A stretch of 44,798 nt of DNA from Escherichia phage SECphi18, in sequence record LT960609. The stretch is one strand, 5' to 3'. Shown one piece after another: positions 552 to 37,402 of this stretch (position 1 is the first letter of the stretch; the number at the start of each line of letters is the position of its first letter). Position numbers and translations under genes: made by a program. Below the pieces are notes generated by a model that did not search any database, was not told where the DNA came from, and saw only the letters and a list, made by a program, of their open reading frames with translations.

Positions 552-2816
552 ATGAGCTTAATTAAATTCGCTGTAACAAGACCCGCTAAAAAAGGCGAAA
601 AAGCCAGGGCGGAAAACTTCCAGATGACCACCGATGAATTTTTCGAATTTATCAAAGATGCGAAAGAAATCTCCTCGGTGCATATCAACAAGACGGAAGA
701 TAAAGCCGAGTATGCGCGCCGCAAGCGTAAGGCCGACGGCATCGTGGCTTATACCAGTGACGGATTGCGTCGTAAGACCAGTGCGGTGGACCGCTCGATC
801 CTGTTCTTTGATATCGACCGTACCGACACCCGCACCCTACGCCGCTGCCGTAAGGCGTTCATTGACGCGGGTCTGGAGCACGTCTTCCACACCACTACCG
901 GCGACCGCCACCCGCTGAAAGGCGGCACGCGTTGCGCCCGTTTCCTGGTGTTGACCGACAAGCCTGTACCGGCGGAAGACCTGGGCCGCGTCCAGTATGC
1001 ACTATTACACCAACTGGGTCTGTCAGATGTGGACTTCGACGATTGCACGAAAGACACAAACCGCCTTATGTACCTGCCACATCAGCAGTCTGTCGTTAAG
1101 TGTCACTACGGAAAACGTGCCCGCGTCCGTCGTCTGCTTCGCCTGGCTGATACGCTGGGAGTGGAGAAAGAGGAAGTGCGCCGCGAACTAACCCAGGGCG
1201 ATGACGGCGTGGCGGACGGAATTCTGGATTGGTGCTTCCAGGCAGGATTCGAACCGCTGTCGTCTGGTCGTGGTTATGAAGTGCCATGCCCGAACGAACA
1301 TCTGCATAGTGGCGAAGGGTCCACCGCAATCATGGTTAAGGATGGCGAGATCCGTTTCAAGTGTATGCACACCGGCAACGAGTGTTGCTCGGAACTGAAC
1401 AGACACCAGCATCTGGCGCTACGTCTTATCGGGATACCTGACCACCTGAACGTCGAACCACACAACATGTCACGTAAGCAAATCGCCGCCATCCTTCCAG
1501 GACTGGACGACGAGGAAGTGGAATCCTGCTATGAACATATCGTTGATGCAGTTGGCGACGGCGAAGAATACGGCGTGTGCACCGATGCCGACCTGGACAA
1601 CGAGCCGGTTGCGCTGTTCAGTAAGCACGACCCGATCATCGAGGGGTTGATTAACTTTAAATCGACCTGGTACATGGCGGGTGAGTCGAATATCGGTAAG
1701 TCTTTCTACGTGCTGGGGCAGATGGGTGCGGTTGCCGCGGGTATTCCGTTTGGCGGTGCGAAGGTCGTCCAGTCCCATTGCTTCTATTTCGATGCGGAAG
1801 GCGGCGAAGCCTCCAACCAGCGTAAGGAAGCATTGCAGATTAAATACGAGCACGACCTGGACAAGCTGCACATTATAGACCTGCAGTCACGCGGCTGGGA
1901 TATCACCAGCAAATCCGGCTTGCGCGAAGTTATCAGCTTTATCAACCGCACCGCTAACGGCGAACCGGTGGGCCTGGTGGCGTTCGACTCACTCAACCAG
2001 ACGGTTGCGTTGCGGTCCGCCGATGCTAAACCGTTCGACGAGAACAACGCCAGCGATATGGGTGAAGTGGTCAAAGCGCTGAAGGCCATCGCGGAAAATA
2101 CAGGTGGCAGTGCGGGCGTCATCCACCACCCGGCTAAAGGTGCAAACGGCAGCAGAACGCCACGCGGGTCCGGCGCGCTTCATGGTGCTGTCGATTCCGC
2201 GTTCTTCCTGGAACAACCGGACGACAACCAGCCCGGACAATTGAACCTGTATCACGAAAAGGCGCGTAACGGCATCAAGCAAGCGCCGCGCGGATTCGTC
2301 CTGCTCAAGTGCAAAGTTAAGGTGGATCTCCGCAAGTCCGAAGCGTTCGAAGCCCACCAGTCCACCAGCACCGGGCCAGACTTCGGCGATGTGGTTGCCG
2401 GTTGGGACGTCAAGCCGATCGCATCCACGCCTCGCGACGAGACTCTTTACCTCGTACCGGTCGCCCTGGCACCGTTCGCCATCGAACAGGCGAAGGCGGC
2501 GGGCAAGGCCGCAGTTAAGGAAGAGAACACCGCCGGACCGCGCAACGAAAAAGAGAAAGTGCTTTATGCGGCACTGGAAAAACTGATGGAAGATAACCCG
2601 GACCATACTGGATTCAGTAAATCGGCAATTGTCCGCCAGGCCGGACTCGCGAAAGGTGGCACATCGACGAAGGCAATCGACGATATGGTCGAGCGCGGCG
2701 TGCTTGGTTTTTATACAGATCCGCACACCGGGGCAATCTATGGGTCGTCGAATATCGTCATCAAAACGAATATACCCATCACGCTTTCGGCGACCGACGA
2801 CGACTTAAAAGATTAA
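552..2816 (+). CDS. DNA primase-helicase (RecA/DnaB-like ATPase with N-terminal primase-like domain)
   Basis: 754 aa; Walker A-like GESNIGKS in a RecA-like core; acidic N-terminal domain with FFDIDRTD. Confidence 0.6.
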   Translation: MSLIKFAVTRPAKKGEKARAENFQMTTDEFFEFIKDAKEISSVHINKTEDKAEYARRKRKADGIVAYTSDGLRRKTSAVDRSILFFDIDRTDTRTLRRCRKAFIDAGLEHVFHTTTGDRHPLKGGTRCARFLVLTDKPVPAEDLGRVQYALLHQLGLSDVDFDDCTKDTNRLMYLPHQQSVVKCHYGKRARVRRLLRLADTLGVEKEEVRRELTQGDDGVADGILDWCFQAGFEPLSSGRGYEVPCPNEHLHSGEGSTAIMVKDGEIRFKCMHTGNECCSELNRHQHLALRLIGIPDHLNVEPHNMSRKQIAAILPGLDDEEVESCYEHIVDAVGDGEEYGVCTDADLDNEPVALFSKHDPIIEGLINFKSTWYMAGESNIGKSFYVLGQMGAVAAGIPFGGAKVVQSHCFYFDAEGGEASNQRKEALQIKYEHDLDKLHIIDLQSRGWDITSKSGLREVISFINRTANGEPVGLVAFDSLNQTVALRSADAKPFDENNASDMGEVVKALKAIAENTGGSAGVIHHPAKGANGSRTPRGSGALHGAVDSAFFLEQPDDNQPGQLNLYHEKARNGIKQAPRGFVLLKCKVKVDLRKSEAFEAHQSTSTGPDFGDVVAGWDVKPIASTPRDETLYLVPVALAPFAIEQAKAAGKAAVKEENTAGPRNEKEKVLYAALEKLMEDNPDHTGFSKSAIVRQAGLAKGGTSTKAIDDMVERGVLGFYTDPHTGAIYGSSNIVIKTNIPITLSATDDDLKD

Positions 2817-2891: not shown

Positions 2892-2976
2892 ATTTTGGGT
2901 GTTTTTATCCGGTCGTATTGGTTGCCGTGTCGTGTAAATATAGTGAATAGTTATGCAATAAAACTGCATAAACTAA

Positions 2977-3078
2977 GCGGGACAAAAAGCGGGACAAACA
3001 TGAGGCGGGACAAAGCGGGACAGCACCCCTGTCCCGCCCCGGATGACGCGGCCTGGCGAGGAGCGGGACAGCGGGACA
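2977..3078. repeat. Iteron cluster A: six direct GCGGGACA copies plus one inverted copy
   Basis: GCGGGACA at about 2977, 2989, 3005, 3015, 3063, 3071; inverted TGTCCCGC at about 3030; non-coding. Confidence 0.7.
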
Positions 3079-3138
3079 GCACCCCAGTCTTTCAGACTAG
3101 ACGGGGTCAGTGGCCCCCCCCCGTCTGAGACTGAATAA
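3064..3138 (+). other. Conserved ~75-nt structured element, copy A (paralog at 19504-19578)
   Basis: cgggacagcgggacagcaccccagtctttcagactagacgggg...ccccgtctgagactgaataa; hairpins agtct/agact and agacgggg/ccccgtct. Confidence 0.55.
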
Positions 3139-3294
3139 AATCCGGGAGATTGCAAAATACACGGCAGCATGATGCGGATTGCGGTCGTTGATGAACTAGG
3201 CAACCAATGCGGGGTGTATTATGCTGAGTGAAAAATGCGGTTTGCAGTTACAGCAGATAGCGATCGACTTTTTCATGCGCGTGATTAATATTGG

Positions 3295-3323
3295 TTGCAC
3301 CCACCCTGGCACCCTGCTATATT
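3295..3323 (+). promoter_or_regulatory. Sigma70-like promoter overlapping two ATTGGTTGCA motif copies
   Basis: -35 TTGCAC (inside motif copy), 17-nt spacer, -10 TATATT (start of second copy); about 30 nt upstream of the 3352 ATG. Confidence 0.5.
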
Positions 3324-3351
3324 GGTTGCACACCAACATGAGGACTGAACA

Positions 3352-7763: not shown

Positions 7764-7789
7764 AGCCCGCCGATTTGGTGGGCTTTTTT
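7764..7789 (+). terminator. Intrinsic terminator
   Basis: agcccgcc-gattt-ggtgggct (one G-U pair) followed by T6. Confidence 0.5.
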
Positions 7790-7803
7790 GTGCCTGTTAT
7801 AAT
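7775..7803 (+). promoter_or_regulatory. Sigma70-like promoter with extended -10, upstream of terminase genes
   Basis: -35 TTGGTG, 17-nt spacer, TGtTATAAT. Confidence 0.45.
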
Positions 7804-7873
7804 CCACCTTAGATGGCAGGGCCGTCTCCTATGTTGCCGATGGTCGGCGCATATGAACAAAAGGGCATATATC

Positions 7874-8425
7874 ATGGCAGAAATCAAAGTTAAGGGCCGA
7901 CGCGCCAAACTGGACGGACGAGTAGCAGTAACCCCGCGCCGTAAACCAGGCGAGCAAACTGAGCATACCAATCTCGGACCTGAAATCGAGTACGGAAAGC
8001 GCCGTAAAGGCGGCAAATGTGGACGCCCTACTGACTACCGATCCGTTTACTGCGACCAGCTTCGCCGCTATTTTGCCGACGCCGACGCCTGGCAGGTCAA
8101 CTACTCCGATAAAGGCGCTGCGCAAGTAATCCCCCGCAACAAAATGCCAACCTTCGGTCGATTTGCCGCGGAAATCGGTGTGGGCGTAGCTTGCCTGTAT
8201 CGCTGGGCGCGCGCACATGAGGAGTTCGCCGAGGCAATGGCTGACGCTATGGAATTGCAGAAAACCTTCCTGATGGAAGCTGGCGGCGTGACCATCGCGG
8301 CGGGCTTCGCCACGTTCCTGCTTAAAGCCAACCACGGCGTCCGCGACGATACCCCACTGGATGACGACGAAGATGATAACGGCGACGTCGTTGTCGAACC
8401 TACCGGCAAAGGCCAGGGTGAGTAA
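7874..8425 (+). CDS. Terminase small subunit
   Basis: 183 aa from internal ATG with RBS aaaggg; HTH-like FAAEIGVGVACLYRWARAHEEF; directly upstream of and overlapping the large subunit. Confidence 0.55.
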   Translation: MAEIKVKGRRAKLDGRVAVTPRRKPGEQTEHTNLGPEIEYGKRRKGGKCGRPTDYRSVYCDQLRRYFADADAWQVNYSDKGAAQVIPRNKMPTFGRFAAEIGVGVACLYRWARAHEEFAEAMADAMELQKTFLMEAGGVTIAAGFATFLLKANHGVRDDTPLDDDEDDNGDVVVEPTGKGQGE

Positions 8426-9820: not shown

Positions 9821-11341
9821 ATGACCGTTAACGTTGACAACCAGCACCCACTTTATGCGCGCATCGCGCCAGAGTGGAAGATGATCCGCGATTGTGTAGC
9901 AGGGGAGCGCGCAGTGAAGGCGTGCGGCCCCTTGTACCTGCCTCATCCCGCCAGTGGCGACAATACTGACCCGAAAGCACGGGCGCGGTATAAGGCGTAC
10001 AAGCAACGCGCTGTATTCCTGAACGCCACCGCCCGCACACTTAACGCGCTGTTAGGCGTTGCCTTTGCTAAACCGGTAAGTCTGGACCTTTCCGGGGCGA
10101 TGGCTGACCTGATTGACGACGTAGACGGCAGTGGTATGCCGCTGCCGCAACTCCTGCGCGGTGCTATGTCGGAAGTGCTGCAATCAGGCCGTGCGGGCTT
10201 TATGGTGGACTACGACCGCCAGGCGCATTTTGATGAACTGGGTAACGTAGTGCCGCAGACAGCCGCTGAGATGGCGTCACACCGCCCGCTTATCCGCCTG
10301 TACACGGCAGAACAGATCATCAACTGGCGGCAGACCCACGGCGTCGATACGCTAATTGTGCTGAAGGAAACGGACGAAATCAGCACCGAAGACCCGGACG
10401 ACTTTGCAAACCACGAAGTAACAATCTGGACCGAGCTTCGCATGATTAACGGTGCGGCACACGCCCGCCGCTGGTACTACAACGCGGACACGTCCGAGGT
10501 GCAAATGGATTTGCCGCGTGGATTTACCCGCACCGACCTTGTTCCGCTGGTGGATGCTGCCGGTCGTGCGCTTACTCAACTTCCGTTTTGCTGGTGCGGC
10601 GCGGTGGATAACAACGCAACGCCAGACGCCGCGCCGCTGGCTGATATTGCGTCCATCAACATTAAGCACTACAACGCCGAAGCGGACGTCGCCGAGATTG
10701 CGCACATCGTGGGCCAACCTACCCTGGTGGCAACGGGCTTGACTCAATCATGGGCGGACAAAAACCTGAAGGGCGGCATTGCCCTCGGTGCGACTAAGGG
10801 CGTTATCCTGGGCCAGAACATGGACGCTAAACTTATTCAGGCCGAGGAGCGCAACTTGTCTGTCGCTCTTTGTGAGCGCCGCGAATTGCAAATGGCTAAA
10901 CTGGGCGCGGCCCTGGTTGAGAAGGGGACCGCACCTAAGACGGCAACGGAAGCGGCCTACGATGCGCAGACTGATAACAGTATCTTGTCGCTTATTGCCG
11001 GTAACGTTGAGAAGGCTTTCAACCGTGCGCTGCAAATCGTCCAGCTATTCACGGGAGACACCGCCGACCAGCGTGTGACGCTGAATAAGTTCTACACCGA
11101 AATCACGGTTGATGCGCAGCTTATGACCGCGATGATGTCGGGTGTGCAGACTGGCACGGTCCGCCTGGCTGATTTCATCAAGTGGATGATGGCGCAGGGC
11201 GTTATCGACGACTCGCAAACCGTCGAGCAGGTGGAAGACGAATTGCGAAATCAGAATCCATTGCCTCAAATGTCCCCTGATGCGGTAGAATCTACCGAAG
11301 AAGACCCGGACAAGGTAGCGGACAATGGCGAAGACAATTAA
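9821..11341 (+). CDS. Portal protein
   Basis: 506 aa; position after terminase; acidic C-terminus. Confidence 0.7.
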   Translation: MTVNVDNQHPLYARIAPEWKMIRDCVAGERAVKACGPLYLPHPASGDNTDPKARARYKAYKQRAVFLNATARTLNALLGVAFAKPVSLDLSGAMADLIDDVDGSGMPLPQLLRGAMSEVLQSGRAGFMVDYDRQAHFDELGNVVPQTAAEMASHRPLIRLYTAEQIINWRQTHGVDTLIVLKETDEISTEDPDDFANHEVTIWTELRMINGAAHARRWYYNADTSEVQMDLPRGFTRTDLVPLVDAAGRALTQLPFCWCGAVDNNATPDAAPLADIASINIKHYNAEADVAEIAHIVGQPTLVATGLTQSWADKNLKGGIALGATKGVILGQNMDAKLIQAEERNLSVALCERRELQMAKLGAALVEKGTAPKTATEAAYDAQTDNSILSLIAGNVEKAFNRALQIVQLFTGDTADQRVTLNKFYTEITVDAQLMTAMMSGVQTGTVRLADFIKWMMAQGVIDDSQTVEQVEDELRNQNPLPQMSPDAVESTEEDPDKVADNGEDN

Positions 11342-12428
11342 TCAACATTTGGCGGATCGAATGATTCGCCGTCACATCTTCACCCAGCGCCTGAGCAATG
11401 ATCAGGCGCGGAGGGTGCTGGCTATGTGGGAGAAGTTCCGGCCCGCTTTGCTAGGCAAGTTGACCGAGTTACTTGATGGCAAAAAGTCCATGAACAACAA
11501 GGCACTTACCACTCTATTAACGCAACTAGACAAGACCGTCAAAACGGAACTGCGCGCCGAGTTTAAGGCGCTGGCTGAAAGCCTTCAGGAGTTCGCCGAC
11601 ACCGAGGCTGATTATCTCACCGACACATTAACGGCAGCGATCCAGCCCGCTGTCGCCGTACCCGCTGTTGAAGTAGTTGGCGTTGTTACCGGCGCGCAGA
11701 TTGCCGCGACGGCAATGAAAAACCCGTTCCAGGGTAATACTATGATGCAATGGCCTGATTCCCTTTCCGAGTGGACCAGGACGCAGATCGGGAATCAGGT
11801 ACGCGCTGGATTCATCCAGGGCAAGCCGACGATGGAAATTATTGCGGACGTGAGGCGCGCGCTAGGCGGTCGTAGTGCGCAAGCAATCTCAAGCGTTGTT
11901 AAGTCCGCGGTCAACCACTATGCGGCGACCGCCCGCGAATTAATGGTAAAAGCTAATGACGATATTCTCGAAGGTCGCCAATGGTTGGCTACATTGGACA
12001 CTCATACTTCCCCTATGTGCCAGCTACGCGATCGCCTGTTTTATCCTGTCGACGTCACTCCCGACACCAAAGGAAAACGCGGCGGGAAAGTGGTGGCGGG
12101 ATCACAATATGGCGCTGGTCCGGGCAAGCTGCATTATTGCTGCCGTTCGACGGAGACGTGGAAAGTTAAGGGCATGGAAGATTGGCCCAGTGGTAAGCGT
12201 CCGGCACTGAAGGCTGAAGCGGGCAGATTGCTGAGTGAGCAGGTCGACGCGCAGACTGATTTCTTCTCATGGGTGCAGCGCCAGCCGCGCCATATTCTGG
12301 AGGAATTATATGGAGTGCAGCGCGCCGACCAGATTATGCGCGGCGTGAAAGTGCCGAAGATGTTCACCGATTCTGGCGAACTGATGACTATCGCACAGCT
12401 TAAAAACCGGGGGTTATGGCGTGATTAA
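11325..12428 (+). CDS. Head morphogenesis protein (Mu F / SPP1 gp7-like)
   Basis: 367 aa; overlaps portal 3' end; typical position. Confidence 0.65.
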   Translation: MAKTINQHLADRMIRRHIFTQRLSNDQARRVLAMWEKFRPALLGKLTELLDGKKSMNNKALTTLLTQLDKTVKTELRAEFKALAESLQEFADTEADYLTDTLTAAIQPAVAVPAVEVVGVVTGAQIAATAMKNPFQGNTMMQWPDSLSEWTRTQIGNQVRAGFIQGKPTMEIIADVRRALGGRSAQAISSVVKSAVNHYAATARELMVKANDDILEGRQWLATLDTHTSPMCQLRDRLFYPVDVTPDTKGKRGGKVVAGSQYGAGPGKLHYCCRSTETWKVKGMEDWPSGKRPALKAEAGRLLSEQVDAQTDFFSWVQRQPRHILEELYGVQRADQIMRGVKVPKMFTDSGELMTIAQLKNRGLWRD

Positions 12429-18541: not shown

Positions 18542-18565
18542 GGGGCCAGCACGGCCCCTTTTTTA
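18542..18565 (+). terminator. Intrinsic terminator after the major tail gene
   Basis: ggggcc-agcac-ggcccc followed by T6. Confidence 0.6.
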
Positions 18566-18580
18566 TTGGAGAATATTACA

Positions 18581-18943
18581 ATGGCTAAAGCACCACTCTT
18601 CACACTTGACCCTAAGCCAACCTTTAAGCTGCCGATTGAGATCCCGCGCCCTGGTGAGAACGAACCCGGCAAGATGACTTTTACCGTCCGCCACCGCCCG
18701 ATCGACGAATTTTCGCAAACCATGCAGGACACCGAACGCAAGTTGTCTGAATATGACGACAATGACCCGGACGGCTTTAACGTTATGGTCGAGGCCATCA
18801 TGCACGTCGCTGAAGGCTGGAATCTGCCGGATGAATTTAACGCAGAGAACGTCCGCCGCCTGGTGGTCAACTACCCACGCGCGTTCGGTGTGTTCCACAC
18901 GTCGTACTATCTCGAGCTGATGGGGTTGCGAGAAAAAAACTAA
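18581..18943 (+). CDS. Tail assembly chaperone (gpG-like)
   Basis: 120 aa from ATG with RBS ggag; ends just after a slippery A_AAA_AAC heptamer. Confidence 0.6.
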   Translation: MAKAPLFTLDPKPTFKLPIEIPRPGENEPGKMTFTVRHRPIDEFSQTMQDTERKLSEYDDNDPDGFNVMVEAIMHVAEGWNLPDEFNAENVRRLVVNYPRAFGVFHTSYYLELMGLREKN

Positions 18944-19257
18944 TTGAGGCGGCGCGACGCTTTTATGGCCCGCCGCCACCCTCCGAAGATTTAGCCGCAA
19001 GTTTATGGGGCGCGGCCCCCGAAGATGTTTGTCCGCCTGTTGCGCTATGGCCCGACAACGCGAAGGTAGTCGCAGTCTTCACAGATTGCTCCACGCAATG
19101 GCGCACCGGATTTGGTGGCGCATACGGCATCGACTACGGCGTGCTGGAGTGGTTATTTAAGATGCACGGTATCGAAAACGAGCAGCGCGCGTTTAAAGAT
19201 ATCAAGCTAATGGAACGAATCGCGCTTGATGAGATGGCGCAGCAGAACCCCGCATAA
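18581..19257 (+). CDS. Tail assembly chaperone GT fusion via programmed -1 frameshift
   Basis: Slippery A_AAA_AAC at about 18934-18940; -1 frame stays open about 103 codons to TAA at about 19255-19257; no in-frame start of its own. Confidence 0.5.
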
Positions 19258-19261
19258 TGAA

Positions 19262-19518
19262 GCGGGACAAAAGCGGGACGTCCCGTTTTGTCCCGCCCTG
19301 TAAAACCGCATATCTAATCTCTTTCATTGCATAAACTCAAAGCGGGACAGGCGGGACGTCCCGTTTTGTCCCACCCCGAAATGTGCATACCTATTCGAAT
19401 TTCGTGCATAAAACAAACGGGACAAAAAGCGGGACAGCATAGGGGCGGGACAAAGCGGGACAGCACCCCGTCCCCACCAGTGCTGCCGCGGGTTTTAGCC
19501 GATCGGGACAGCGGGACA
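19262..19518. repeat. Iteron cluster B: about nine GCGGGACA-type copies with GGGACGTCCC palindromes
   Basis: Units of about 80 nt: tgcataaa, then GCGGGACA, then GCGGGACgtcccg; non-coding block inside the tail module. Confidence 0.7.
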
Positions 19519-19578
19519 GCACCCCAGTCTTTCAGACTAGACGGGGGTCAACGGCCCCCCTCGTCTGAGACTGAATAA
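19504..19578 (+). other. Conserved ~75-nt structured element, copy B (paralog at 3064-3138)
   Basis: Matches copy A except for a few changes in the second hairpin that keep pairing through a G-U wobble. Confidence 0.55.
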
Positions 19579-19640
19579 GGATTGTTTTAAAATCGCTGAT
19601 ACAATGTCAATCGGCAACTGCATAAAAAGGGGACTGCATA

Positions 19641-22283
19641 ATGGCAGATCAAGCGGCAGGCATCACGCTGAAGGCTGATGTTGCACAAATCAGAACGGCA
19701 AATACTGTGCTGGACTCCTTCGCACAGAAATCCGAGAACACAGAAAACAAGGTTAAGAAATTAAACGACACCCTCGGCAAATCCAAAAAGGTGACGAGTG
19801 ACGCCGCGGGCGGAATGGAAAAGCTGGCAAACGAATCGCAGCGCGCCGCCGATGGCATGACGAAACAGGAGCGACTCGCCAACAGGTTAGGGATGTCGAC
19901 TAAAAACCTGGGCTTTGCCTCGCGTAACGCCGCATTCCAGCTACAGGATATTGCGGTAACGCTTGAGATGGGGATGCCGGTTCACCGCGTCATGCTTCAG
20001 CAGTTACCGCAGCTAACTGGGGCGTTCGGTGGACTGGGTAACACGCTGCGTTATGTTGCGGGCTTCCTCGGCCCAGTAGGGATCGGCCTTGCCGCCGTAA
20101 CGGCAACGTTAGGCGTGGGCGTGGCAATTACGTCCCGCGCAGAGAACCAGGTCGCCGCGCTTAACAAGACGCTGGCACTTTCCGGTAACATTTCCGGCCT
20201 GACGGCAAACCAGATCCTGGTGCTATCCGAGAACGCCGAGCGCATGGGCGGGTCGTTCCGCAAGACGCGTGACACAATCCAGGCGCTGGCGGCGGCGGGG
20301 GTGAAAGCGGGTGGTGACTTCGGTGCACTGGCGAAGGTAGTGAATGACTTCTCGAAGGTGTCCAGCCAGCCGATCGAGGATGTGGTCGCGGCGGTGGCGA
20401 AGCTGTCTACCGACCCGGTAGGCGGCTTGCGAGCATTGGCTGATAAGTATCACGTCGTAAACGAAGCGCAGATCCAGCAGGTGCAGTCACTAGTGACGGC
20501 TGGTCGCGAAACCGAAGCGGTGGCGCTGGCTAACAAAACAGCCGCGGCGTCGTTTACCACTATGACCAATGAGATCAAGTCCAACATGGGTACGCTTGAG
20601 CGGTCGATGAACGTCGTTACATCGGCAGCTAAATCTATGTGGGATGCTATCCTGGATGTTGGACGCGCGCAGTCCTCGAATGAGTCTGAGATGAAGGCGC
20701 GTGAGTCATTGCAGCGGCTGACAACGGCTTACTATGCCGAGATGAAAGCGGTAAACGCTGCCGGCGGGGTGATGACCGACGCGCAGAAAGCGCGTATTAA
20801 CATGCTTTACAGCGAACTGGTCGCCCAGGAAAAGGTGGTGGCGTCGCTTACCCTGCGTAACCGAGCCGAGCGAGACAACGCAAGTGCCGCGGACGAAGCA
20901 GCAAAGGCGAACGAAGAGGCCAACCGCACCGCCCGCGACCGCGCCGCGTTCGAGAAGGAGTACGCAACCAACGCGAAGAGGCGCGCCGACGAGATCGCCC
21001 GCCTCAATTTGCTTAATAAGCGCGGCGTGATTGACGAGAAAGAGCTTGCCGAGGCGGTGAAGCAGGTAAACGAGCGTTACAAAGACCCCGCCCCGAAGAA
21101 GGCCGCCGCTGTTCGAGTCGATGCCGGGCTGAAAATGCTGGAAGTCGCGCGAAGCGAATTAGCCCAGCTTCGTGAGTCTGGAAAGCAGATCGAAGCCAAC
21201 GCATCGACGCAGACCCGCACGCAACGCGCGCAGGCGGCCCTAAACAAGCTGATTGCCGACAACGAGCAGTTAATCGCTGCGAGCAAAGAAAGGGCGCTGA
21301 CGGCAGCAGAGAAGCAGCAATTAGTCGAGTTCGGGCGCGTGAAGGAAGTCCGCGAGCAGATCGTCGAAGAAGCCAAATTGCTGGACGCGAAAGAGAAGCA
21401 GGTCAAGGCGCACGCGCAGATCGACGCCTTCGTTAAGAACCAGAACGCCGAGCTAAAAGCCACCGCGGCGGGCTATGCGCTTTCCACTCGCGAAGCGGCT
21501 AACCTGCGCGAAGAATTGCAGCTAATTGACCGCCTTAAGCGGGTGGGCGCTAGTGATACCGATATTGATCTGGCAGTGTCTAAACTGCGCGAAGTGCAGG
21601 AAGCACAGACCGGTGCTAACGCCTCACTATGGGATGGATTCAGCCGTGGGCTTAAGGATAGCGTGGATGAAATGGGTAACGGCTATACGCAGATGGCGTC
21701 ACTCACAAAATTCACGTTCGGCGCTATGCAGGACACGATGAACGAGTTTTTCGAGACTGGCAAGCTGAACGCAAAGGATATGGTTAAGTCCATCCTGAGC
21801 GAATTAATAAAGCTGGCTACATCGCAGGCATTCAAGTCCATCGTTAGCGCTTTCGGTGGCGACGGTGGAAAAAACGGGTTGTTCGGCGCTATCTTCTCCG
21901 GCCTCACTAAGAATGCGGACGGCGGAGCGTACGCAGGAGGCAATCTCGCATCCTATTCGGGGAAAGTGGTAAGCCAGCCTACCTTTTTCAGTTATGGCGT
22001 CCAGGCGTTCGCTAAGGGCGCGGGATTGATGGGTGAGGCTGGACCCGAGGCCATCATGCCACTGAAGCGCGGGCCGGACGGGAAACTGGGCGTTGCCGCG
22101 TCTGGCGCAGGCGGTGGTATGGTCGTGACGACTAACGTTTACACGGGGACCGGTAAAACGGATACCAGTGTCAACGGGCCGGACCCACGTACCGCGCAGG
22201 CGTTCGGCAAGCAAATCACCGAGGCGGTGAAGGCCGAGATCGTGAAGGCGACGAAACCGGGTGGTGTACTTTACAAACGATGA
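19641..22283 (+). CDS. Tail tape measure protein
   Basis: 880 aa; long Ala/Lys/Glu-rich helical protein after G/GT; Gly-rich C-terminal region. Confidence 0.85.
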   Translation: MADQAAGITLKADVAQIRTANTVLDSFAQKSENTENKVKKLNDTLGKSKKVTSDAAGGMEKLANESQRAADGMTKQERLANRLGMSTKNLGFASRNAAFQLQDIAVTLEMGMPVHRVMLQQLPQLTGAFGGLGNTLRYVAGFLGPVGIGLAAVTATLGVGVAITSRAENQVAALNKTLALSGNISGLTANQILVLSENAERMGGSFRKTRDTIQALAAAGVKAGGDFGALAKVVNDFSKVSSQPIEDVVAAVAKLSTDPVGGLRALADKYHVVNEAQIQQVQSLVTAGRETEAVALANKTAAASFTTMTNEIKSNMGTLERSMNVVTSAAKSMWDAILDVGRAQSSNESEMKARESLQRLTTAYYAEMKAVNAAGGVMTDAQKARINMLYSELVAQEKVVASLTLRNRAERDNASAADEAAKANEEANRTARDRAAFEKEYATNAKRRADEIARLNLLNKRGVIDEKELAEAVKQVNERYKDPAPKKAAAVRVDAGLKMLEVARSELAQLRESGKQIEANASTQTRTQRAQAALNKLIADNEQLIAASKERALTAAEKQQLVEFGRVKEVREQIVEEAKLLDAKEKQVKAHAQIDAFVKNQNAELKATAAGYALSTREAANLREELQLIDRLKRVGASDTDIDLAVSKLREVQEAQTGANASLWDGFSRGLKDSVDEMGNGYTQMASLTKFTFGAMQDTMNEFFETGKLNAKDMVKSILSELIKLATSQAFKSIVSAFGGDGGKNGLFGAIFSGLTKNADGGAYAGGNLASYSGKVVSQPTFFSYGVQAFAKGAGLMGEAGPEAIMPLKRGPDGKLGVAASGAGGGMVVTTNVYTGTGKTDTSVNGPDPRTAQAFGKQITEAVKAEIVKATKPGGVLYKR

Positions 22284-31588: not shown

Positions 31589-31611
31589 GGGGCCATGCGG
31601 CCCCTTTTTTT
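31589..31611. terminator. Bidirectional intrinsic terminator
   Basis: ggggcc-atgc-ggcccc followed by T7; lies between convergent genes. Confidence 0.6.
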
Positions 31612-32185
31612 AGTTTGAGTTTTCCCAGTCCATTTTTCGCCGCACCAGGGGGCTTTCGTAGTATTCCTTTCCGTCCACTTCCACTAAGGGCCAGTCATTA
31701 ACAATGACGTATGGTTCCGCGATATCCTCGATCACGCCATGCGCGCTTTGCGGCCCTAACGACACACCAACCAGGATAACACCGGCAACGCGACGGGCAA
31801 GATACTCGCGAGCGCAACGCGCCTCTACCAGTCCGCGACGGATGCCGCTGGTGGCCTTAACCTCGTAGGTCCATACGGCATCAATCACATGCTCGCGGAA
31901 GTCTGGACCGGACTTAACCTTGCGTTTACCGACCATGATGATATCGCCGCGGTCAATGGTATTGGCGCTAAACAGGCCGGTACGCATCAGTAAGCCTTGC
32001 GGGATACAACTACGCCCGCCCGCCTGGCCCTCAAGGTACATGCCAGCAAACATCTCGCCCAGCACACCGACAAGACGGCTTTGCTTGCACGCGTCAGACT
32101 TTAAGCGCCACTGGTCAAACTCGATGCTTGCTATCATAGCCGCCAGGTGGAATTGTTTACCGGATATTTCATATTCGCCGTACAT
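31610..32185 (-). CDS. Hypothetical protein, possible PD-(D/E)xK nuclease fold
   Basis: 191 aa; GPDF...VWTYEVK resembles a PD...ExK motif; weak. Confidence 0.35.
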   Translation of the reverse strand: MYGEYEISGKQFHLAAMIASIEFDQWRLKSDACKQSRLVGVLGEMFAGMYLEGQAGGRSCIPQGLLMRTGLFSANTIDRGDIIMVGKRKVKSGPDFREHVIDAVWTYEVKATSGIRRGLVEARCAREYLARRVAGVILVGVSLGPQSAHGVIEDIAEPYVIVNDWPLVEVDGKEYYESPLVRRKMDWENSN

Positions 32186-32227
32186 CGTGTGGCCCTCATT
32201 GATGCGGGCCGAAGCCCGCGATTAGAA

Positions 32228-32749
32228 TTATTTCAGTGCGCCAGTCACCAGTGTTTTTTCCATGTTGCGGAAGTCTTCCGGCGTCATGAGGATTTTGGAC
32301 CCGTCTTCGCCAGTTAGAACGACCATAGGCTGGACGTCCTGGTCTACGACGCCGAAATCGGCGGCTTTGACAGTCTTGCCCGCCGATGCCGAAGGATGCC
32401 ACGCCCCTGCGGTGGCGATGGGCCAACCTTTAAGGCTATCGTATTGCGCTGCCGTTGTATCGATCTGGATCTCGTCATGTACGGTCATGTACGACTCGCC
32501 CAGCAGTGCGGCATATGCTACCAGGTCAACGATGTTATCGTCCTGGTGCTTACGGTGCTGGCGTACCAGCTTCAGGCAGATCAGGAAGGTCCAGGCTTCT
32601 TGCTCGGTAAGGTCGCGACCGGTAAGCGCGTTAAACACGGCAGCGATCTGCTTAGCGCTGCGCTCCTCTTTCGCGTTGTCATAGCCGTTTTCTTTCCCGC
32701 GCTGATCCATAGTGGTGGCGGCGTTTTTGCAGTATTCGTATGCTTTCAC
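32228..32749 (-). CDS. Hypothetical protein
   Basis: 173 aa; GTG start with RBS aaaggg. Confidence 0.45.
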   Translation of the reverse strand: MKAYEYCKNAATTMDQRGKENGYDNAKEERSAKQIAAVFNALTGRDLTEQEAWTFLICLKLVRQHRKHQDDNIVDLVAYAALLGESYMTVHDEIQIDTTAAQYDSLKGWPIATAGAWHPSASAGKTVKAADFGVVDQDVQPMVVLTGEDGSKILMTPEDFRNMEKTLVTGALK

Positions 32750-32793
32750 AGTATTACCCTTTTAGTGAGGGGCAGTATTGCCCCGACACGTTT

Positions 32794-32823
32794 ACTATAG
32801 TGCAACCAACCTATTGGTTGCAA
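32794..32823 (-). promoter_or_regulatory. Sigma70-like promoter containing a palindromic operator
   Basis: TGCAACCAA-cctA-TTGGTTGCA inverted repeat (9-bp arms); minus strand -35 TTGCAA, 18 nt, -10 TATAGT. Confidence 0.5.
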
Positions 32824-33281
32824 GTAAATTTTGCAACGTTTATTGCGTAAATTTTCGGGACCAGATCGCTGCACGCCCGACGAATTGCCGCGATGTTCTT
32901 CTCGCAATCTTCAATGATGACCAGTTCGGACACGTCCGCATAGCAGACCATTTTGAACACGGCGCACGCTTTAAACTCTGGCGGCGGGGTGTCGTCCAGC
33001 ATGTGGCGCATGAACAACCGGCCGTTCGGGAATACTTCCAGTTGCTCGGCGGTCGTGTCCCAACATTCGCGCTGCCGGTTTGTCAGATACGCGATCTCGA
33101 AGCCTTGCTCTTTGTACATGCGCAACAGCGGCAGCATATCCATGTTAAGGTCTTCGCGTACGTGCGCTTTGTGCCACTTCGCCCAAAATGTTGATTTGGT
33201 TTTTATACCCGGAACCAGGTCGGCGCGTGCATCACTCGAACCATTAATAACGCCATCAAGATCACAAATCAGTAGTTTCAT
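32811..33281 (-). CDS. HAD-superfamily hydrolase/phosphatase-like protein
   Basis: 156 aa; N-terminal LLICDLDGVI matches HAD motif I (DxDG). Confidence 0.5.
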   Translation of the reverse strand: MKLLICDLDGVINGSSDARADLVPGIKTKSTFWAKWHKAHVREDLNMDMLPLLRMYKEQGFEIAYLTNRQRECWDTTAEQLEVFPNGRLFMRHMLDDTPPPEFKACAVFKMVCYADVSELVIIEDCEKNIAAIRRACSDLVPKIYAINVAKFTCNQ

Positions 33282-33502
33282 TTTAAGCTCTCAATAAGGG
33301 TGTGTCGGGCGCTGCGCGCGGTGAAGGAGTTACACACGAAATGGCAACGCTTGGTTATGACAAGCCAGCCGGTAAGATCCAGGCCCAGGATATATTCAGG
33401 CCGTGACACGCGCTTCACGTGATCGCGGCGTGGGTCGATGTTATAGTCTCTTTGCATTTGGTATACTACCGCGGGGTCGCGGTCAACGATTAAGATATTC
33501 AT
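33278..33502 (-). CDS. Hypothetical protein
   Basis: 74 aa from internal ATG with RBS gagag; overlaps neighbours by 4 nt. Confidence 0.4.
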   Translation of the reverse strand: MNILIVDRDPAVVYQMQRDYNIDPRRDHVKRVSRPEYILGLDLTGWLVITKRCHFVCNSFTARSARHTLIESLK

Positions 33503-33968
33503 GTAACTCACTCTCGCTCATTATTTCAATTTGTGCGCTGCCGATGGGCGGCGCTTCGTCAAAGATTATCAATTGCTGGCACTTGTTATTGCTAGGCCCG
33601 ACTTCGCCGGTGACGGCGTGTATAAATCTAATCCGCCAGTCCAGAAGAATTATCAGGTTTGCAGTCTTCCTGGCCAGCTTCGCCCCCTTCGTCGACGTGT
33701 CCTGATTCAGTAGCATGACCGTCCGGCGTCCGTGCGCTGCGCACTCTACCCACGGCAGCGGATCGGAATACGGCGGATTGCACCACTTCCACCCTTTCAA
33801 CTCGGACCAGTCCACATCAAGCGCGCTGTGTTCCGCCGTGAAGTAACGCGGTAGCAGATGATTGGCGTCGCTTGCCGCCATATCGTAACGGAATCGGTAT
33901 TTCCGACGAAGCGGTTTAAATAAAGCTGGCGGCGTGCGCCAGCTATCTTTTTGCTCATTCTCCGTCAT
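33483..33968 (-). CDS. DNA N6-adenine methyltransferase (phage Dam-like)
   Basis: 161 aa; catalytic NPPY motif (WCNPPYSD). Confidence 0.6.
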   Translation of the reverse strand: MTENEQKDSWRTPPALFKPLRRKYRFRYDMAASDANHLLPRYFTAEHSALDVDWSELKGWKWCNPPYSDPLPWVECAAHGRRTVMLLNQDTSTKGAKLARKTANLIILLDWRIRFIHAVTGEVGPSNNKCQQLIIFDEAPPIGSAQIEIMSESELHEYLNR

Positions 33969-34413
33969 AGTCTGGATCTATCGCATACAGGGCGGTTTTC
34001 TTGCCACTGGATAGCACGCGTTGGACTCGGGATAGCTCCGCCCTACTGAGCGGTCGGCTATCGGAATAGTAGCTGCCGTTTGCACGCCACGCTATACGCA
34101 CCAGTCCTTTCCGCGGGATCGAAGACTGGCTGCCCTTCGGACGGACGTACTCCTCGGCCAGTTTGCAATGCTCGCGCAGACCTTCGGCAGTGATGCGGTT
34201 TAGCGCGACGGTGGTTGTGTACCCGGTGCGCTGCATAATACCCATCAACTCATACAGCAGTTCGAAGCGCTCCTCTAACTCCTTGCGCATCTTTTCCTCG
34301 CCTTCATAGCTCGCCAGGTAGGTATCCGCCAGCGCGTTCGCCCGTTCGACCTGTTCGCGGGCTTCGAGGCATTGCGCGGCCCAGTAATTTTTCTCTTCTT
34401 GTAAAATTTTCAT
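33955..34413 (-). CDS. Hypothetical protein
   Basis: 152 aa; charged helical N-terminus. Confidence 0.45.
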   Translation of the reverse strand: MKILQEEKNYWAAQCLEAREQVERANALADTYLASYEGEEKMRKELEERFELLYELMGIMQRTGYTTTVALNRITAEGLREHCKLAEEYVRPKGSQSSIPRKGLVRIAWRANGSYYSDSRPLSRAELSRVQRVLSSGKKTALYAIDPDYDGE

Positions 34414-34433
34414 CGTGTTGTCTCCAGGTATTA

Positions 34434-34460
34434 AAAAAGGCGTCCAAACCGGACACCCTT
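34434..34460 (-). terminator. Terminator-like hairpin on minus strand
   Basis: Minus strand: ggtgtcc-ggttt-ggacgcc followed by T6. Confidence 0.4.
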
Positions 34461-34467
34461 AAGATAA

Positions 34468-34494
34468 TGCAACCAATATAATTATGCAACCAAT
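34468..34494. promoter_or_regulatory. Tandem operator-motif pair
   Basis: Two TGCAACCAAT copies 17 nt apart in the intergenic region. Confidence 0.5.
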
Positions 34495-34818
34495 TTACGA
34501 ATAAAAATTTGGGTCGCGCGCTACGTCTACCAGATACAGATTGCTGATTCGGTTGCCGTAGTGGCCTGGTGTGCGCTTGCGGCACACAACGGCGTAGCCT
34601 GGAGGAATTGTATTGCCAGTCTCAATAATCCACGCCACGCGCGCGCCAGATAGCGTCTTGCCGTTGCACTCGATGCGCGTGCCACCATCGGCAGTGTTAA
34701 GGTTGCCGATCTTGCAGCCTGTGGACTTCAGGCGAATGACGCCGGTCTTGCTGTCGTAGGAAAAAAGCTGATTGGTCATTGCCACTGAAAAGTCGATGGC
34801 TTCGAATGTAGTATTCAT
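34495..34818 (-). CDS. Hypothetical protein, HNH-like
   Basis: 107 aa; weak resemblance to homing-endonuclease DNA-binding modules. Confidence 0.3.
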   Translation of the reverse strand: MNTTFEAIDFSVAMTNQLFSYDSKTGVIRLKSTGCKIGNLNTADGGTRIECNGKTLSGARVAWIIETGNTIPPGYAVVCRKRTPGHYGNRISNLYLVDVARDPNFYS

Positions 34819-35510
34819 TTTAAATTTTCCTCATTGACCGCTATCGCGAAGCCGCGCGGGGTGAGCGACCTGATTAATTTGGTGCGGGCAGATTTGCCTC
34901 CGAGGCGACTATACTGCTTCGAGTACCCTTTTTCAACGAAAACAGGTTTCTTCTCTGGCATACGGAAGCCGTTGCCGGTCCATAAGCAGGTCAGCTTCGG
35001 ATATGAATCGCGGGCGTTGATGTACTCTGGGAAGAGCGGGTGTACGTCATCCACCGGTAGATAGCCGCCATACTCCCACGGGTCGAACGAGTGGTCCGGC
35101 TTGCGCCATTGGGTCGATAGCACGCTGCGCGGATTCTCAATCATATATGGCACTTCGAAGAAGTCCCCCAGGTAAGCGGCGATCTTCGCGGTGCGCACCG
35201 CCTTAAGCTGGAAGGCAGGGTCGCGGGCGCGTTTGCGCGGGAAAGCTGGCGCACCGCTAACCGCCAGATCCGTACACGGCGGGAATGCGTAAATGATATC
35301 CGGCGTGCCGAAATCACCATTCATCGCGCGGTCCACGAAGTCCAGATCGATAAACTCATTACGATATCGGATACCGCGCCCATAGATCCGGTAATCAAGG
35401 TAAGACCCGTGATCGGCTTCGGAGTAGTTGAAGCAATAACACTTATGCCCCATCTCGGCAGCACGCTCAATCATCAAGCCGCTGCCGTCAAACAATGACC
35501 AGATTATCAT
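34815..35510 (-). CDS. DNA C5-cytosine methyltransferase-like protein
   Basis: 231 aa; motif I-like LFDGSG, motif IV-like FPPC, motif VI-like ENP; short for a full methyltransferase. Confidence 0.45.
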   Translation of the reverse strand: MIIWSLFDGSGLMIERAAEMGHKCYCFNYSEADHGSYLDYRIYGRGIRYRNEFIDLDFVDRAMNGDFGTPDIIYAFPPCTDLAVSGAPAFPRKRARDPAFQLKAVRTAKIAAYLGDFFEVPYMIENPRSVLSTQWRKPDHSFDPWEYGGYLPVDDVHPLFPEYINARDSYPKLTCLWTGNGFRMPEKKPVFVEKGYSKQYSRLGGKSARTKLIRSLTPRGFAIAVNEENLK

Positions 35511-36931: not shown

Positions 36932-36935
36932 CTCT

Positions 36936-37154: not shown

Positions 37155-37170
37155 CGGCATGTCTCCCAAA

Positions 37171-37195
37171 AATGGCGGGACAAGCCCGCCGTATT
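37171..37195 (-). terminator. Intrinsic terminator on minus strand
   Basis: Minus strand: ggcgggc-ttgt-cccgcc followed by attttt. Confidence 0.45.
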
Positions 37196-37197
37196 AA

Positions 37198-37371: not shown

Positions 37372-37402
37372 CTCTAAAATCCTCGATATGGCTAACCGGC
37401 AC

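What the first reader, a model, noticed from the sequence alone, without database searches (positions are those of the whole stretch)
19258..19640. Iteron-rich ~380-bp non-coding block inside the tail module
Tail chaperone and tape measure genes are normally adjacent. Here the gap holds about nine GCGGGACA-type repeats in ~80-nt units (tgcataaa, GCGGGACA, GCGGGACgtcccg) and ends in a conserved hairpin element just before an extended -10 (TGaTACAAT) and the tape measure ATG. Candidate roles: second replication origin, protein-binding array, or structured/regulatory RNA locus.
Basis: seen in the sequence. Interest (0 to 1): 0.8.

Follow-up and report, generated by a model that had tools for sequence, protein, structure and literature searches.

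The report
Origin-like repeat block between tail genes
A conserved 383-base non-coding stretch between two tail genes of an E. coli phage holds about 15 copies of a short protein-binding motif plus a conserved hairpin, and it is a partial copy of a block next to the phage's replication gene, so it is most likely a second replication-origin-like site, not a gene or a known RNA.

Summary
The window is a whole Dhillonvirus (HK578-like) genome. Positions 19258-19640 are non-coding and lie between the tail chaperone G/GT and the tape measure gene. They hold 15 GGGAC/GTCCC cores (7 exact GCGGGACA), a conserved 49-nt hairpin and a conserved extended -10.

Both blocks occur across the genus, and the Sodalis phage SO-1 GenBank record already annotates them as repeat 'region A/B'.

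In diverged relatives the layout is kept but every box changes together: GCGGGACA, GTGTGGCA, GTGTGCCA or GGTGCCA. In two cases the same new box type was found at both loci, on contigs from the same sample. That points to one phage-encoded sequence-specific binder. The helicase-primase carries a predicted C-terminal winged helix whose helix residues track the box type, but only weakly.

Best reading (about 0.5): iteron-type origin elements, with the tail-module block as a second origin or fork-barrier copy, as with SPP1 oriL/oriR. A transcription-control cassette is the main rival. No Rfam match and no formal covariation support an RNA gene. The function has not been tested.

The parts
19258..19640 (+). 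Block B: the whole non-coding gap between the GT stop codon and the tape measure ATG
   Evidence: ORF map; frame check; 1-2 nt indels in relatives; present in 157 phage records at 80-97% identity
19262..19296 (.). Four-box palindromic cluster 1 (two forward, two reverse boxes): GCGGGACAAAAGCGGGAC|GTCCCGTTTTGTCCCGC. HK578 and WFI annotate the inner part as a rho-independent terminator
   Evidence: Inverted repeats I5 and I8; the boxes are kept but the spacers are not complementary in relatives; terminator annotations
19297..19341 (.). AT-rich spacer 1 (67% A+T against 45% for the genome) with CGCATAT and TGCATAA 21 bp apart
19342..19374 (.). Four-box palindromic cluster 2, a tandem copy of cluster 1
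   Evidence: D3 repeat, 90% identity, 78-nt offset
19375..19416 (.). AT-rich spacer 2 (62% A+T) with TGCATAC and TGCATAA 21 bp apart
19417..19524 (+). Unit 3 array: six forward boxes and one reverse box around an invariant CAGTGCTGCCGCG (19478-19490). Paralogous to 2965-3084
   Evidence: Self-BLAST: 19405-19469 matches 2965-3029 at 89%; alignment
19525..19573 (+). Conserved 49-nt irregular hairpin. Both arms are nearly invariant and the loop is variable. Paralogous to 3085-3133
   Evidence: 96.4% of cells paired but no pair changed on both sides; 19504-19578 matches 3064-3138 at 93%
19597..19605 (+). Extended -10 promoter-like element TGATACAAT (-10 hexamer at 19600-19605) in front of the tape measure gene
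   Evidence: Invariant in Dhillonvirus; TGATACAAT in L052 and TGCTACAAT in L049. A consensus match only; the transcription start has not been mapped
19611..19618 (+). TCGGCAAC, a conserved motif just after the -10 (ACGGCAGCA in block A at 3161-3169); possibly the transcription start region
   Evidence: inference
19641..22283 (+). Tape measure protein gene (context)
   Evidence: annotations
18566..19257 (+). Tail assembly chaperone G (18566-18943) and its -1 frameshift extension T (slippery A AAA AAC at 18934-18940; frame open to 19257) (context)
   Evidence: Pfam Phage_TAC_4; translation; DUF1799 on homologues
2977..3084 (+). Block A array: six forward GGGAC boxes and one reverse box, inside the 535-bp gap 2817-3351 after the helicase-primase gene
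3085..3133 (+). Block A copy of the conserved hairpin
2951..2971 (.). Inverted repeat TTATGCA-N7-TGCATAA just upstream of the block A array
552..2816 (+). Helicase-primase (754 aa). It has an N-terminal primase-like domain, a Cys/His motif at residues 246-287, an RSF1010 RepA-like helicase core, a predicted winged helix at residues 666-737 (nt 2547-2762) and an acidic tail. It is the candidate reader of the boxes
   Evidence: Pfam AAA_25; PHROG 3228; model; 1g8y_A TMt 0.64; winged-helix hits at E 0.09-1; residue-to-box table

Best explanation
Block B is a cis-acting DNA element. It is an array of about 15 short binding sites (8-bp boxes, core GGGAC) for one phage-encoded sequence-specific protein. 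The boxes are interleaved with AT-rich spacers and followed by a conserved 49-nt hairpin. It is a partial duplicate of block A, which sits directly after the helicase-primase gene.

The most likely function is that of an iteron-type replication origin. The fused primase-helicase, probably through its C-terminal winged helix, would bind the boxes, open the adjacent AT-rich or hairpin DNA, and load and prime there. Block A would be the primary origin. Block B, 16.4 kb away in the late operon, would be a second origin or a bound-initiator fork barrier, as proposed for SPP1 oriR. A conserved extended -10 promoter for the tape measure gene sits at its downstream edge.

Shown: repeat anatomy, non-coding status, paralogy, conservation, and the concerted box switch. 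Inferred: protein binding, the identity of the binder, and origin function.
For: (1) The boxes are enriched (16 against 2.35 expected) and confined to two blocks.

(2) They occur in both orientations as forward-forward-reverse-reverse clusters, mostly about 8-16 bp apart. That fits double-stranded DNA recognition better than RNA recognition.

(3) Box positions are 94% conserved and 72% invariant, against 83% and 47% for non-box positions. Where spacers change, the palindrome arms stop being complementary but the boxes stay.

(4) The box type switches in concert on an unchanged layout. It is GCGGGACA in the window and L040, GTGTGGCA in L041 and L043, GTGTGCCA in L042, and GGTGCCA in L056 and L057. 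The tail-module copies carry the same new type in contigs from the same samples: L049 with L042, and L052 with L043.

(5) The primary copy is always directly downstream of the helicase-primase gene. This holds even in Guernseyvirinae at 43-48% protein identity, which have different boxes: ACTCGCAA in Klebsiella phage 37P2 and GGGGAGA in Salmonella phage SE1. 37P2 has independently placed a second paralogous copy in its head module.

(6) The helicase-primase has an RSF1010 RepA-like core and a predicted C-terminal winged helix. The residues at the start of helices 2 and 3 sort by box class in 8 proteins, and two predictions made from this were met.

(7) The AT-rich segments are 62-67% A+T against 45% for the genome.

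(8) There is a precedent. SPP1 has oriL inside a replication gene and oriR inside the late morphogenesis region. Both have repeats plus an AT-rich unwinding element, and both are bound by gp38 (PMC6316719).
Against: There is no functional data of any kind.

The link between winged-helix residues and box type rests on about 4-5 independent lineages and on conservative changes such as Thr/Ser. Sliding-window identity shows no segment of the helicase-primase that clearly tracks box type.

The winged-helix fold matches have weak E-values (0.09-1).

GC skew follows gene direction and says nothing about origins. The window has no DnaA boxes.

Block B ends at a conserved promoter. The locus syntenic to block A in Jerseyvirus and Kagunavirus is a Cro-type repressor plus sigma-70 promoter region, which fits a transcriptional role equally well.

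The assumption that L042/L049 and L043/L052 each come from one phage rests only on a shared sample and contig lengths that add up to about one genome.
Confidence: 0.5

Rival explanations
1. Transcription-control cassette. The box arrays would be operator or enhancer sites for a phage regulator that insulates or times internal promoters of the late operon. The hairpin would stop or process read-through from upstream, and the extended -10 would restart transcription for the tape measure and distal tail genes.
For: A conserved TGATACAAT lies 24 nt after the hairpin and 36 nt before the ATG. A canonical terminator follows the major tail gene just upstream, at 18542-18558. HK578 and WFI annotate the first palindrome as a terminator. 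The locus syntenic to block A in Jerseyvirus and Kagunavirus is a Cro-like repressor plus a TTGACA...TATAGT promoter with repeated operators. Both copies in 37P2 run right up to a gene start.
Against: The arrays span roughly -90 to -340 relative to the -10, which is far for a bacterial activator or repressor. In block A the best promoter (TTGCAC-17-TATATT, 3295-3323) is about 160 bp downstream of the hairpin and is built on a different motif, ATTGGTTGC. The main hairpin has no U tract, so it is not an intrinsic terminator. The U tract after the inner palindrome is lost in SO-1, HK578 and WFI while the boxes are kept. The only clear HTH regulator nearby does not co-vary with the boxes.
Confidence: 0.25
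2. Structured non-coding RNA or RNA processing element. The block would be transcribed with the late operon and would fold into box:anti-box stems plus the conserved hairpin. It would act as an RNase III-type processing or stability site, or as a protein-sponge RNA.
For: Strong predicted folding of the plus strand (-155 kcal/mol, z = -7.2). Every hairpin variant folds to a similar shape, even the diverged L042 copy. By eye there are candidate compensatory changes in L048 (AGACG/CGTCT to GGACG/CGTCC), L043 (G-C to T-A) and L042.
Against: No Rfam family comes near its threshold. On the model-based alignment, no pair changes on both sides and the shuffles match the observed values. RNAalifold gives a covariation term of about zero. 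Palindrome spacers lose complementarity while the boxes are kept. Many boxes are direct repeats with no partner. A concerted change of all boxes at two loci is not needed to keep stems paired.
Confidence: 0.1
3. Packaging recognition site: small-terminase binding repeats (pac).
For: Arrays of short repeats are typical of some pac sites (general knowledge). Several public assemblies break inside or at the edge of the block.
Against: There are two copies per genome, neither near terS (7775-8425). TerS identity does not follow box type: the window against L040 (same box) is 55%, and against L042 (different box) is 60%. The assembly breaks are more simply explained by the A/B repeat and the hairpins.
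Confidence: 0.05

Closest known systems
Bacillus phage SPP1 oriL / oriR (bound by gp38)
   Same: There are two similar repeat-plus-AT-rich elements. One is at the replication gene. The other interrupts the conserved late morphogenesis gene order and is bracketed by transcription signals, about 13 kb away (16.4 kb here). oriR is proposed to stall the fork and trigger the switch from theta to concatemer replication (PMC6316719; PMC3485210).
   Different: SPP1 uses a separate origin-binding protein, a loader and a DnaB-type helicase. Here the only candidate is a fused primase / RepA-like helicase / winged-helix protein. SPP1 oriL lies inside gene 38, whereas block A lies after the gene. No counterpart of the conserved 49-nt hairpin or of the forward-forward-reverse-reverse box clusters is known to me in SPP1. 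There is no sequence similarity.
Satellite phage P4 ori / crr with the alpha protein (from my own knowledge, not checked here)
   Same: One polypeptide combines primase, helicase and a C-terminal winged-helix origin-binding domain. It binds octamer iterons present at two separate loci (ori and crr), both needed in cis.
   Different: The P4 alpha helicase is superfamily 3 and its primase is of another type. No sequence match to any solved structure was found. The iteron sequence differs. The requirement for both loci is untested here.
RSF1010 / IncQ oriV (iterons plus ssiA/ssiB hairpins; RepA helicase, RepB' primase, RepC) (from my own knowledge for the origin; the helicase fold match was tested here)
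   Same: The helicase core matches RSF1010 RepA structurally (1g8y_A, TMt 0.64, rmsd 3.7; Pfam AAA_25). The origin combines iterons with conserved hairpins that serve as primase entry sites.
   Different: In RSF1010 the three activities are separate proteins and the iterons are about 20 bp long. Here the boxes are 8 bp, there is one hairpin per block on one strand, and no priming role has been shown.
SaPI pri-rep-ori modules and archaeal plasmid pRN1 (ORF904)
   Same: The origin lies immediately downstream of a primase/helicase replication gene. For pRN1, 166 bp downstream of orf904 are essential (PMC4234260, abstract seen). In SaPIs, short iterons match the specificity of the Rep C-terminus (my own knowledge).
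   Different: The helicase families and hosts differ. Those systems have no second copy inside structural genes.
GenBank annotation of Sodalis phage SO-1 (NC_013600 / GQ502199)
   Same: It is the same element. A repeat_region 'region A' at 11214-11597 lies between gp16 and the tape measure gene, and 'region B' at 40178-40657 lies after the helicase-primase gene. They are described as direct, inverted and palindromic repeats with mutual similarity, followed by 'possible ...' (note cut off in the tool output).
   Different: It is an annotation only. I found no paper in the searched library that analyses it.

Membership tests
Iteron-type replication origin | Array of short repeated binding sites | tested here: met
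   15 GGGAC/GTCCC boxes in 263 bp; 16 exact GCGGGACA in the window against 2.35 expected
Iteron-type replication origin | Adjacent AT-rich DNA unwinding element | tested here: inconclusive
   Three segments of 42-67 nt have 62-67% A+T against 45% for the genome. They are modest in length and AT content, and unwinding was not tested
Iteron-type replication origin | Iterons are bound by a cognate initiator whose specificity co-evolves with them | tested here: inconclusive
   The boxes switch in concert between lineages, with same-sample pairs matching at both loci. Winged-helix residues of the helicase-primase sort by box class, but no segment-level signal was found and the lineages are few. Binding itself cannot be tested with these tools
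Iteron-type replication origin | Linkage to the replication initiator gene | tested here: met
   Met for block A and its homologues in Dhillonvirus-like contigs, 37P2 and SE1. Block B is the unlinked second copy
Iteron-type replication origin | Supports initiation of replication in cis | not testable with these tools
   Needs marker-frequency mapping, 2D gels or ori-plasmid assays
Rho-independent terminator | GC-rich stem-loop followed directly by a U tract | tested here: not met
   The main hairpin (19525-19573) is followed by GAAUAAGGAUUG. The scan reports no plus-strand terminator in the block. The GTCCCGTTTTGT after the inner palindromes is not conserved
Any Rfam RNA family | Covariance-model score at or above the family's gathering threshold | tested here: not met
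   No hits at gathering thresholds. The best sub-threshold hit is 31.7 bits against a threshold of 70, to a microRNA hairpin model
Structured RNA (general) | Base pairs maintained by compensatory substitutions | tested here: inconclusive
   96.4% of cells are paired against 44-57% in slid controls, but no pair changes on both sides and the shuffles match. By-eye candidates in L048, L043 and L042 depend on the alignment register
Protein-coding gene | Open reading frame preserved among relatives | tested here: not met
   76 of 81 indel events are 1-2 nt long. The ORFs called here by some annotators are not conserved as frames
Sigma-70 promoter with extended -10 | TGnTAnAAT at a suitable distance upstream of the gene, and conserved | tested here: met
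   TGATACAAT at 19597-19605 is invariant in Dhillonvirus, and TGCTACAAT / TGATACAAT occur in L049 / L052. This is a sequence-level match only. The consensus scan, which needs a -35 element, did not list it
CRISPR array | Regular repeats of 23-50 nt separated by unique spacers of similar length | tested here: not met
   The repeats are 8 bp long, in both orientations, irregularly spaced mostly 8-16 bp apart

The most novel reading that the evidence does not exclude
The block may be a portable 'initiator-landing' cassette: lineage-specific boxes, a conserved hairpin and a promoter. Different siphophage lineages would have copied it independently from the replication-gene locus into different places in their late operons, namely the tail module in Dhillonvirus-like phages and the head module in Klebsiella phage 37P2. 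There the bound primase-helicase would act as a programmed fork barrier or second origin. This would couple the switch to concatemer replication with expression of the distal structural genes.
Probability: 0.15. Interest if true: 0.75.

Novelty: new variant of a known kind. Interest (0 to 1): 0.55.

Why it matters
Dhillonviruses are among the most often isolated E. coli phages and are used in defence-system and therapy studies, yet I found nothing published on how they start replication.

If the two blocks are origins read by the fused primase-helicase, this gives a compact system that can be tested in E. coli. It would address dual origins, and possibly an SPP1-like switch from theta to concatemer replication.

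Nature has already provided specificity variants (GCGGGACA, GTGTGGCA, GTGTGCCA, GGTGCCA) for swap experiments.

There are practical points too. Gene callers place spurious 'hypothetical proteins' in this block. Public assemblies often break at it. Cloned copies of the block could titrate the initiator and inhibit the phage.

Tried and rejected
- **Known RNA families.** Searches at gathering and permissive thresholds gave only noise-level microRNA-hairpin hits.
- **Coding sequence.** Rejected on the indel pattern.
- **The HTH protein (212-541) as box reader.** Rejected because its recognition helix is identical in the GGGACA and GTGGCA lineages. It more likely reads the ATTGGTTGC motif, which is conserved in all lineages.
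- **A gene shared only by genomes with the same box type.** None was found.
- **A helicase-primase segment that tracks box type.** Sliding identity gave no clear signal. Only single positions track it.
- **GC skew as an origin marker.** Confounded by gene orientation.
- **DnaA boxes.** None in the window.
- **Plasmid homologues with annotated origins.** Three weak or irrelevant hits.
- **Literature.** Searches on Dhillonvirus repeats, SO-1, HK578 and Guernseyvirinae origins found nothing on this element. The search for the bare motif was useless.
- **Terminator function of the main hairpin.** Rejected because there is no U tract.
- **CsrA-type sponge RNA.** I considered this and dropped it, because the GTGGCA, GTGCCA and ACTCGCAA box variants have no GGA core.
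- **My own error.** My first covariance model (R1) used a structure string that I had mis-typed by one column. The count showed this (96.9% paired at slide -1). I rebuilt it as R2.
- **The whole-protein fold search.** It returned only RecA/RepA-core matches. The C-terminal domain had to be modelled separately.

Full report
**What the window is.** The 501 bases around the finding match 157 phage records at 80-97% identity, almost all of them Escherichia phages of the genus Dhillonvirus (HK578-like siphoviruses). The window's length and gene order match a complete genome of that genus. Plus-strand genes run from about 212 to 31578 in this order: HTH protein, helicase-primase, small genes, lysis, terminase, head, tail. 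The replication and modification genes lie on the minus strand from 31610 to 44732.

**Checking the observation.** The block 19258-19640 lies between the end of the tail chaperone and the tape measure ATG at 19641.
- The chaperone G ORF is 18566-18943 (Pfam Phage_TAC_4). A slippery A AAA AAC at 18934-18940 leads into a -1 frame that stays open to the TAA at 19255-19257.
- GCGGGACA occurs 16 times in the window against 2.35 expected. Seven copies are in this block.
- Counting the core pentamer on both strands gives 15 boxes between 19264 and 19517.
- Two tandem units of about 78 nt each consist of a four-box palindromic cluster plus an AT-rich spacer with two TGCATA motifs 21 bp apart.
- A third unit carries six forward boxes and one reverse box. 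It ends in a 49-nt irregular hairpin at 19525-19573 (-27 kcal/mol).
- TGATACAAT lies at 19597-19605.
- The block is non-coding. In an alignment with 16 relatives, 76 of 81 indel events inside it are 1 or 2 nt long, while the flanking coding sequence has none. The 'hypothetical proteins' that some records annotate here are therefore not credible.

The other seven GCGGGACA copies lie at 2977-3078, in the 535-bp gap after the helicase-primase gene (552-2816).
- Self-comparison shows that 19405-19469 matches 2965-3029 at 89%, and 19504-19578 matches 3064-3138 at 93%. Unit 3 plus the hairpin of block B is therefore a paralogue of block A.
- A 22-nt probe from the hairpin found 29 places in IMG/VR, all on 16 contigs of about 42.5-45 kb. 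Thirteen of these contigs matched twice.
I found no paper that analyses them.

**Conservation pattern.**
- Box positions are 94% conserved and 72% invariant, against 83% and 47% for the other positions of the array.
- Where relatives differ in the first palindrome, the spacers stop being complementary (AGG against AAAA) but the GGGAC cores remain. Selection therefore acts on the boxes, not on a long stem.
- The hairpin block is more conserved (95.7% mean identity) than the neighbouring coding sequence (91-94%), and its variation is concentrated in the loop.

**Distant relatives are the most informative result.** Homologues of the helicase-primase at about 68% identity were traced to their contigs. 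Each keeps the same layout after the gene: ATTGGTTGC motifs, a TATGCA...TGAATAA element, a box cluster, a spacer, two boxes and the hairpin. The boxes, however, differ as a set.

| Box type | Helicase-adjacent block |
|---|---|
| GCGGGACA | window, L040 |
| GTGTGGCA | L041, L043 |
| GTGTGCCA | L042 |
| GGTGCCA | L056, L057 |

Homologues of the tail chaperone at 57-65% identity show that the tail-module copy also exists in these lineages, and it carries the matching box type.
- L049 has GTGTGCCA and comes from the same sample as L042. L052 has GTGTGGCA and comes from the same sample as L043. In each pair the contig lengths add up to about one genome.
- L048 has GGGAC boxes.
- L053 has GGGTGCCA boxes.

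A concerted change of every box, seen at both loci in the two same-sample pairs, is what one expects of binding sites for a single trans-acting protein whose specificity has shifted. It is not needed to keep RNA stems paired.

**Further out.**
- Klebsiella phage 37P2 (48% identity in the helicase-primase) has ACTCGCAA/TTGCGAGT boxes in two paralogous blocks of about 300 bp. One follows the helicase-primase gene. The other lies in the head module, between the minor capsid and spanin genes.
- Salmonella phage SE1 has GGGGAGA boxes once, after the helicase-primase gene.
- So the primary copy is linked to the replication gene, and a second copy has been placed in late operons at least twice, at different sites.
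- Jerseyvirus and Kagunavirus have instead a Cro-like repressor and a canonical promoter at the syntenic site.

**Which protein reads the boxes?**
- The small HTH protein upstream of the helicase-primase (212-541; HTH_23 and sigma-70 region 4-like) keeps an identical recognition helix in lineages with different boxes. It may read ATTGGTTGC, which is conserved in all lineages.
- No gene is shared only by genomes with the same box type.
- The helicase-primase model (mean pLDDT 72.5) shows a confident N-terminal domain that matches primase PHROGs. It also shows a Cys/His motif at residues 246-287, and a core matching the RSF1010 RepA helicase (1g8y_A, TMt 0.64). At the C-terminus there is a three-helix-plus-wing domain (666-737) followed by an acidic tail.
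- Modelled alone (pLDDT 78), that domain's best PDB matches are all winged-helix domains: histone H1, MepR-DNA, IclR, Rio2, ORC2 and LexA. Their E-values are weak, at 0.09-1.
- Residues at the start of helices 2 and 3 sort by box class in eight proteins:

| Box class | Residues |
|---|---|
| GGGACA | FSKSAI...GGT(S/N)T |
| GTGGCA | FSRRAI...GGSST |
| GTGCCA | FSARQI...GGSTS |
| GGTGCCA | FSK(A/S)AIM...GGST(T/S)T |

- The prediction that two 'GGS' proteins would have non-GGGACA boxes was met.
- This is suggestive only. The lineages are few and related, the changes are conservative, and a sliding-window comparison gave no segment-level signal.

**The hairpin.** Every variant folds to a similar irregular hairpin, including the diverged L042 copy. 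On a covariance-model alignment of 29 copies, 96.4% of cells are paired against 44-57% for slid controls. However, no pair changes on both sides and the shuffles reach the observed values. RNAalifold gives no covariation term. By eye there are candidate compensatory changes in L048, L043 and L042, but they depend on the alignment register. The structure is plausible but unproven. The invariance of both arms suggests recognition of the sequence itself. There is no U tract, so it is not an intrinsic terminator.

**Interpretation.** The anatomy best fits an iteron-type origin: short boxes in both orientations, mostly about one helical turn apart, with AT-rich spacers, linkage to a primase-helicase that carries a DNA-binding-type domain, lineage-specific boxes, and a second copy at a distance.

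The closest documented parallel is SPP1. Its oriL lies in replication gene 38 and its oriR interrupts the late morphogenesis genes. Both have repeats plus an AT-rich unwinding element, and both are bound by gp38. oriR is proposed to stall the fork and trigger the switch to concatemer synthesis (PMC6316719; PMC3485210). P4 ori/crr with its alpha protein, RSF1010 oriV, and the SaPI and pRN1 rep-ori modules share other features; these rest on my own knowledge, apart from the RepA fold match and the pRN1 abstract.

The main rival is a transcription-control cassette. Block B ends in a conserved promoter, and the locus syntenic to block A is a promoter/operator region in sister genera. The two roles are not exclusive.

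I put about 0.8 on 'DNA-level array of binding sites for one phage protein'.

**Novelty and interest.** The element is already flagged in one GenBank record and is present in more than 150 sequenced phages, so the observation itself is not new. As far as I could find, these points are new:
- the link between the two loci;
- the concerted specificity switches;
- the independent second copy in a Klebsiella phage;
- the candidate reader.

If the origin reading holds, it is a new variant of a known kind (dual iteron origins), in a very accessible E. coli phage.

Noticed in passing
window 13, 2828, 2882, 2917, 3200(-), 3290, 3321, 3840(-), 13664(-), 13677(-), 29775(-), 32813, 34469(-), 34486(-), 37428(-), 44756: ATTGGTTGC occurs 16 times exactly (26 with one mismatch allowed, against 12.2 expected). 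Most of the sites I located against called genes lie in intergenic DNA, and they often come in pairs. At 3290-3323 it supplies the -35 of a good sigma-70-like promoter (TTGCAC-17-TATATT). The same design is seen in L040 (TTGCAA-17-TATTAT) and L043. It is conserved in lineages whose GGGAC-type boxes differ. It is probably the phage's own promoter or operator motif, and possibly the target of the 109-aa HTH protein.
   Followed up: partly
window genome-wide; also L036 (Klebsiella phage 37P2): ACGGCAGCA with up to one mismatch occurs 55 times, against 13.6 expected in the window and 11.3 in 37P2. Many of the matches fall inside ORFs. An exact copy also sits just after the -10-like elements downstream of the hairpins (3161-3169; L036:10910 and 1590). 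This could be a codon-usage effect that dinucleotide shuffles do not control for, or a real genome-wide signal.
   Followed up: no
window 19421-19567; L050, L051 and L053 ends: Public assemblies tend to break at this block. The Maverick (LR990702) and CHD5UKE2 (NC_073059) records carry their 127-nt terminal overlap inside it. Three Logan contigs end at or inside the block. Several other GenBank records start or end within about 700 bp of it. This is probably an effect of the repeat and hairpins on assemblers, but a physical DNA end or a coverage anomaly is not excluded.
   Followed up: partly
window 2805-2863: A 59-bp segment holds one ATTGGTTGC and a perfect 18-bp palindrome, ATATGGGAATTCCCATAT (2839-2856). 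It is present in the window and five of the 16 aligned relatives and cleanly absent from ten. It looks like an operator-like indel.
   Followed up: no
window 18542-18558: A canonical intrinsic terminator (GGGGCC-AGCAC-GGCCCC followed by TTTTTT) lies right after the major tail protein gene. It fits attenuation of transcription before the chaperone and tape measure genes.
   Followed up: no
L048 3674-4422; L049 3662-3835; L052 3677-3850: In diverged relatives, one or two small minus-strand ORFs (57-126 aa) are inserted between the T domain and the repeat block, next to an ATTGGTTGC motif. These are moron-like insertions at the same spot, as at SPP1 oriR.
   Followed up: no
window 552-2816, last residues (nt about 2796-2813): The helicase-primase ends in a conserved acidic tail (D-[DE]-D-L-x-[DE]). 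This recalls the acidic C-terminal tail of T7 gp4 that contacts the DNA polymerase (from my own knowledge).
   Followed up: no
L050 3690-3721: Another lineage's tail-module block begins with tandem GGCTAACCGGCAAC units just before the contig ends. This may be a further box type.
   Followed up: no
window 19581-19610, minus strand: The promoter scan lists a minus-strand TTGACA-18-AACAAT (10 of 12 matches) overlapping the plus-strand -10. It would send antisense transcription into the hairpin and array.
   Followed up: no
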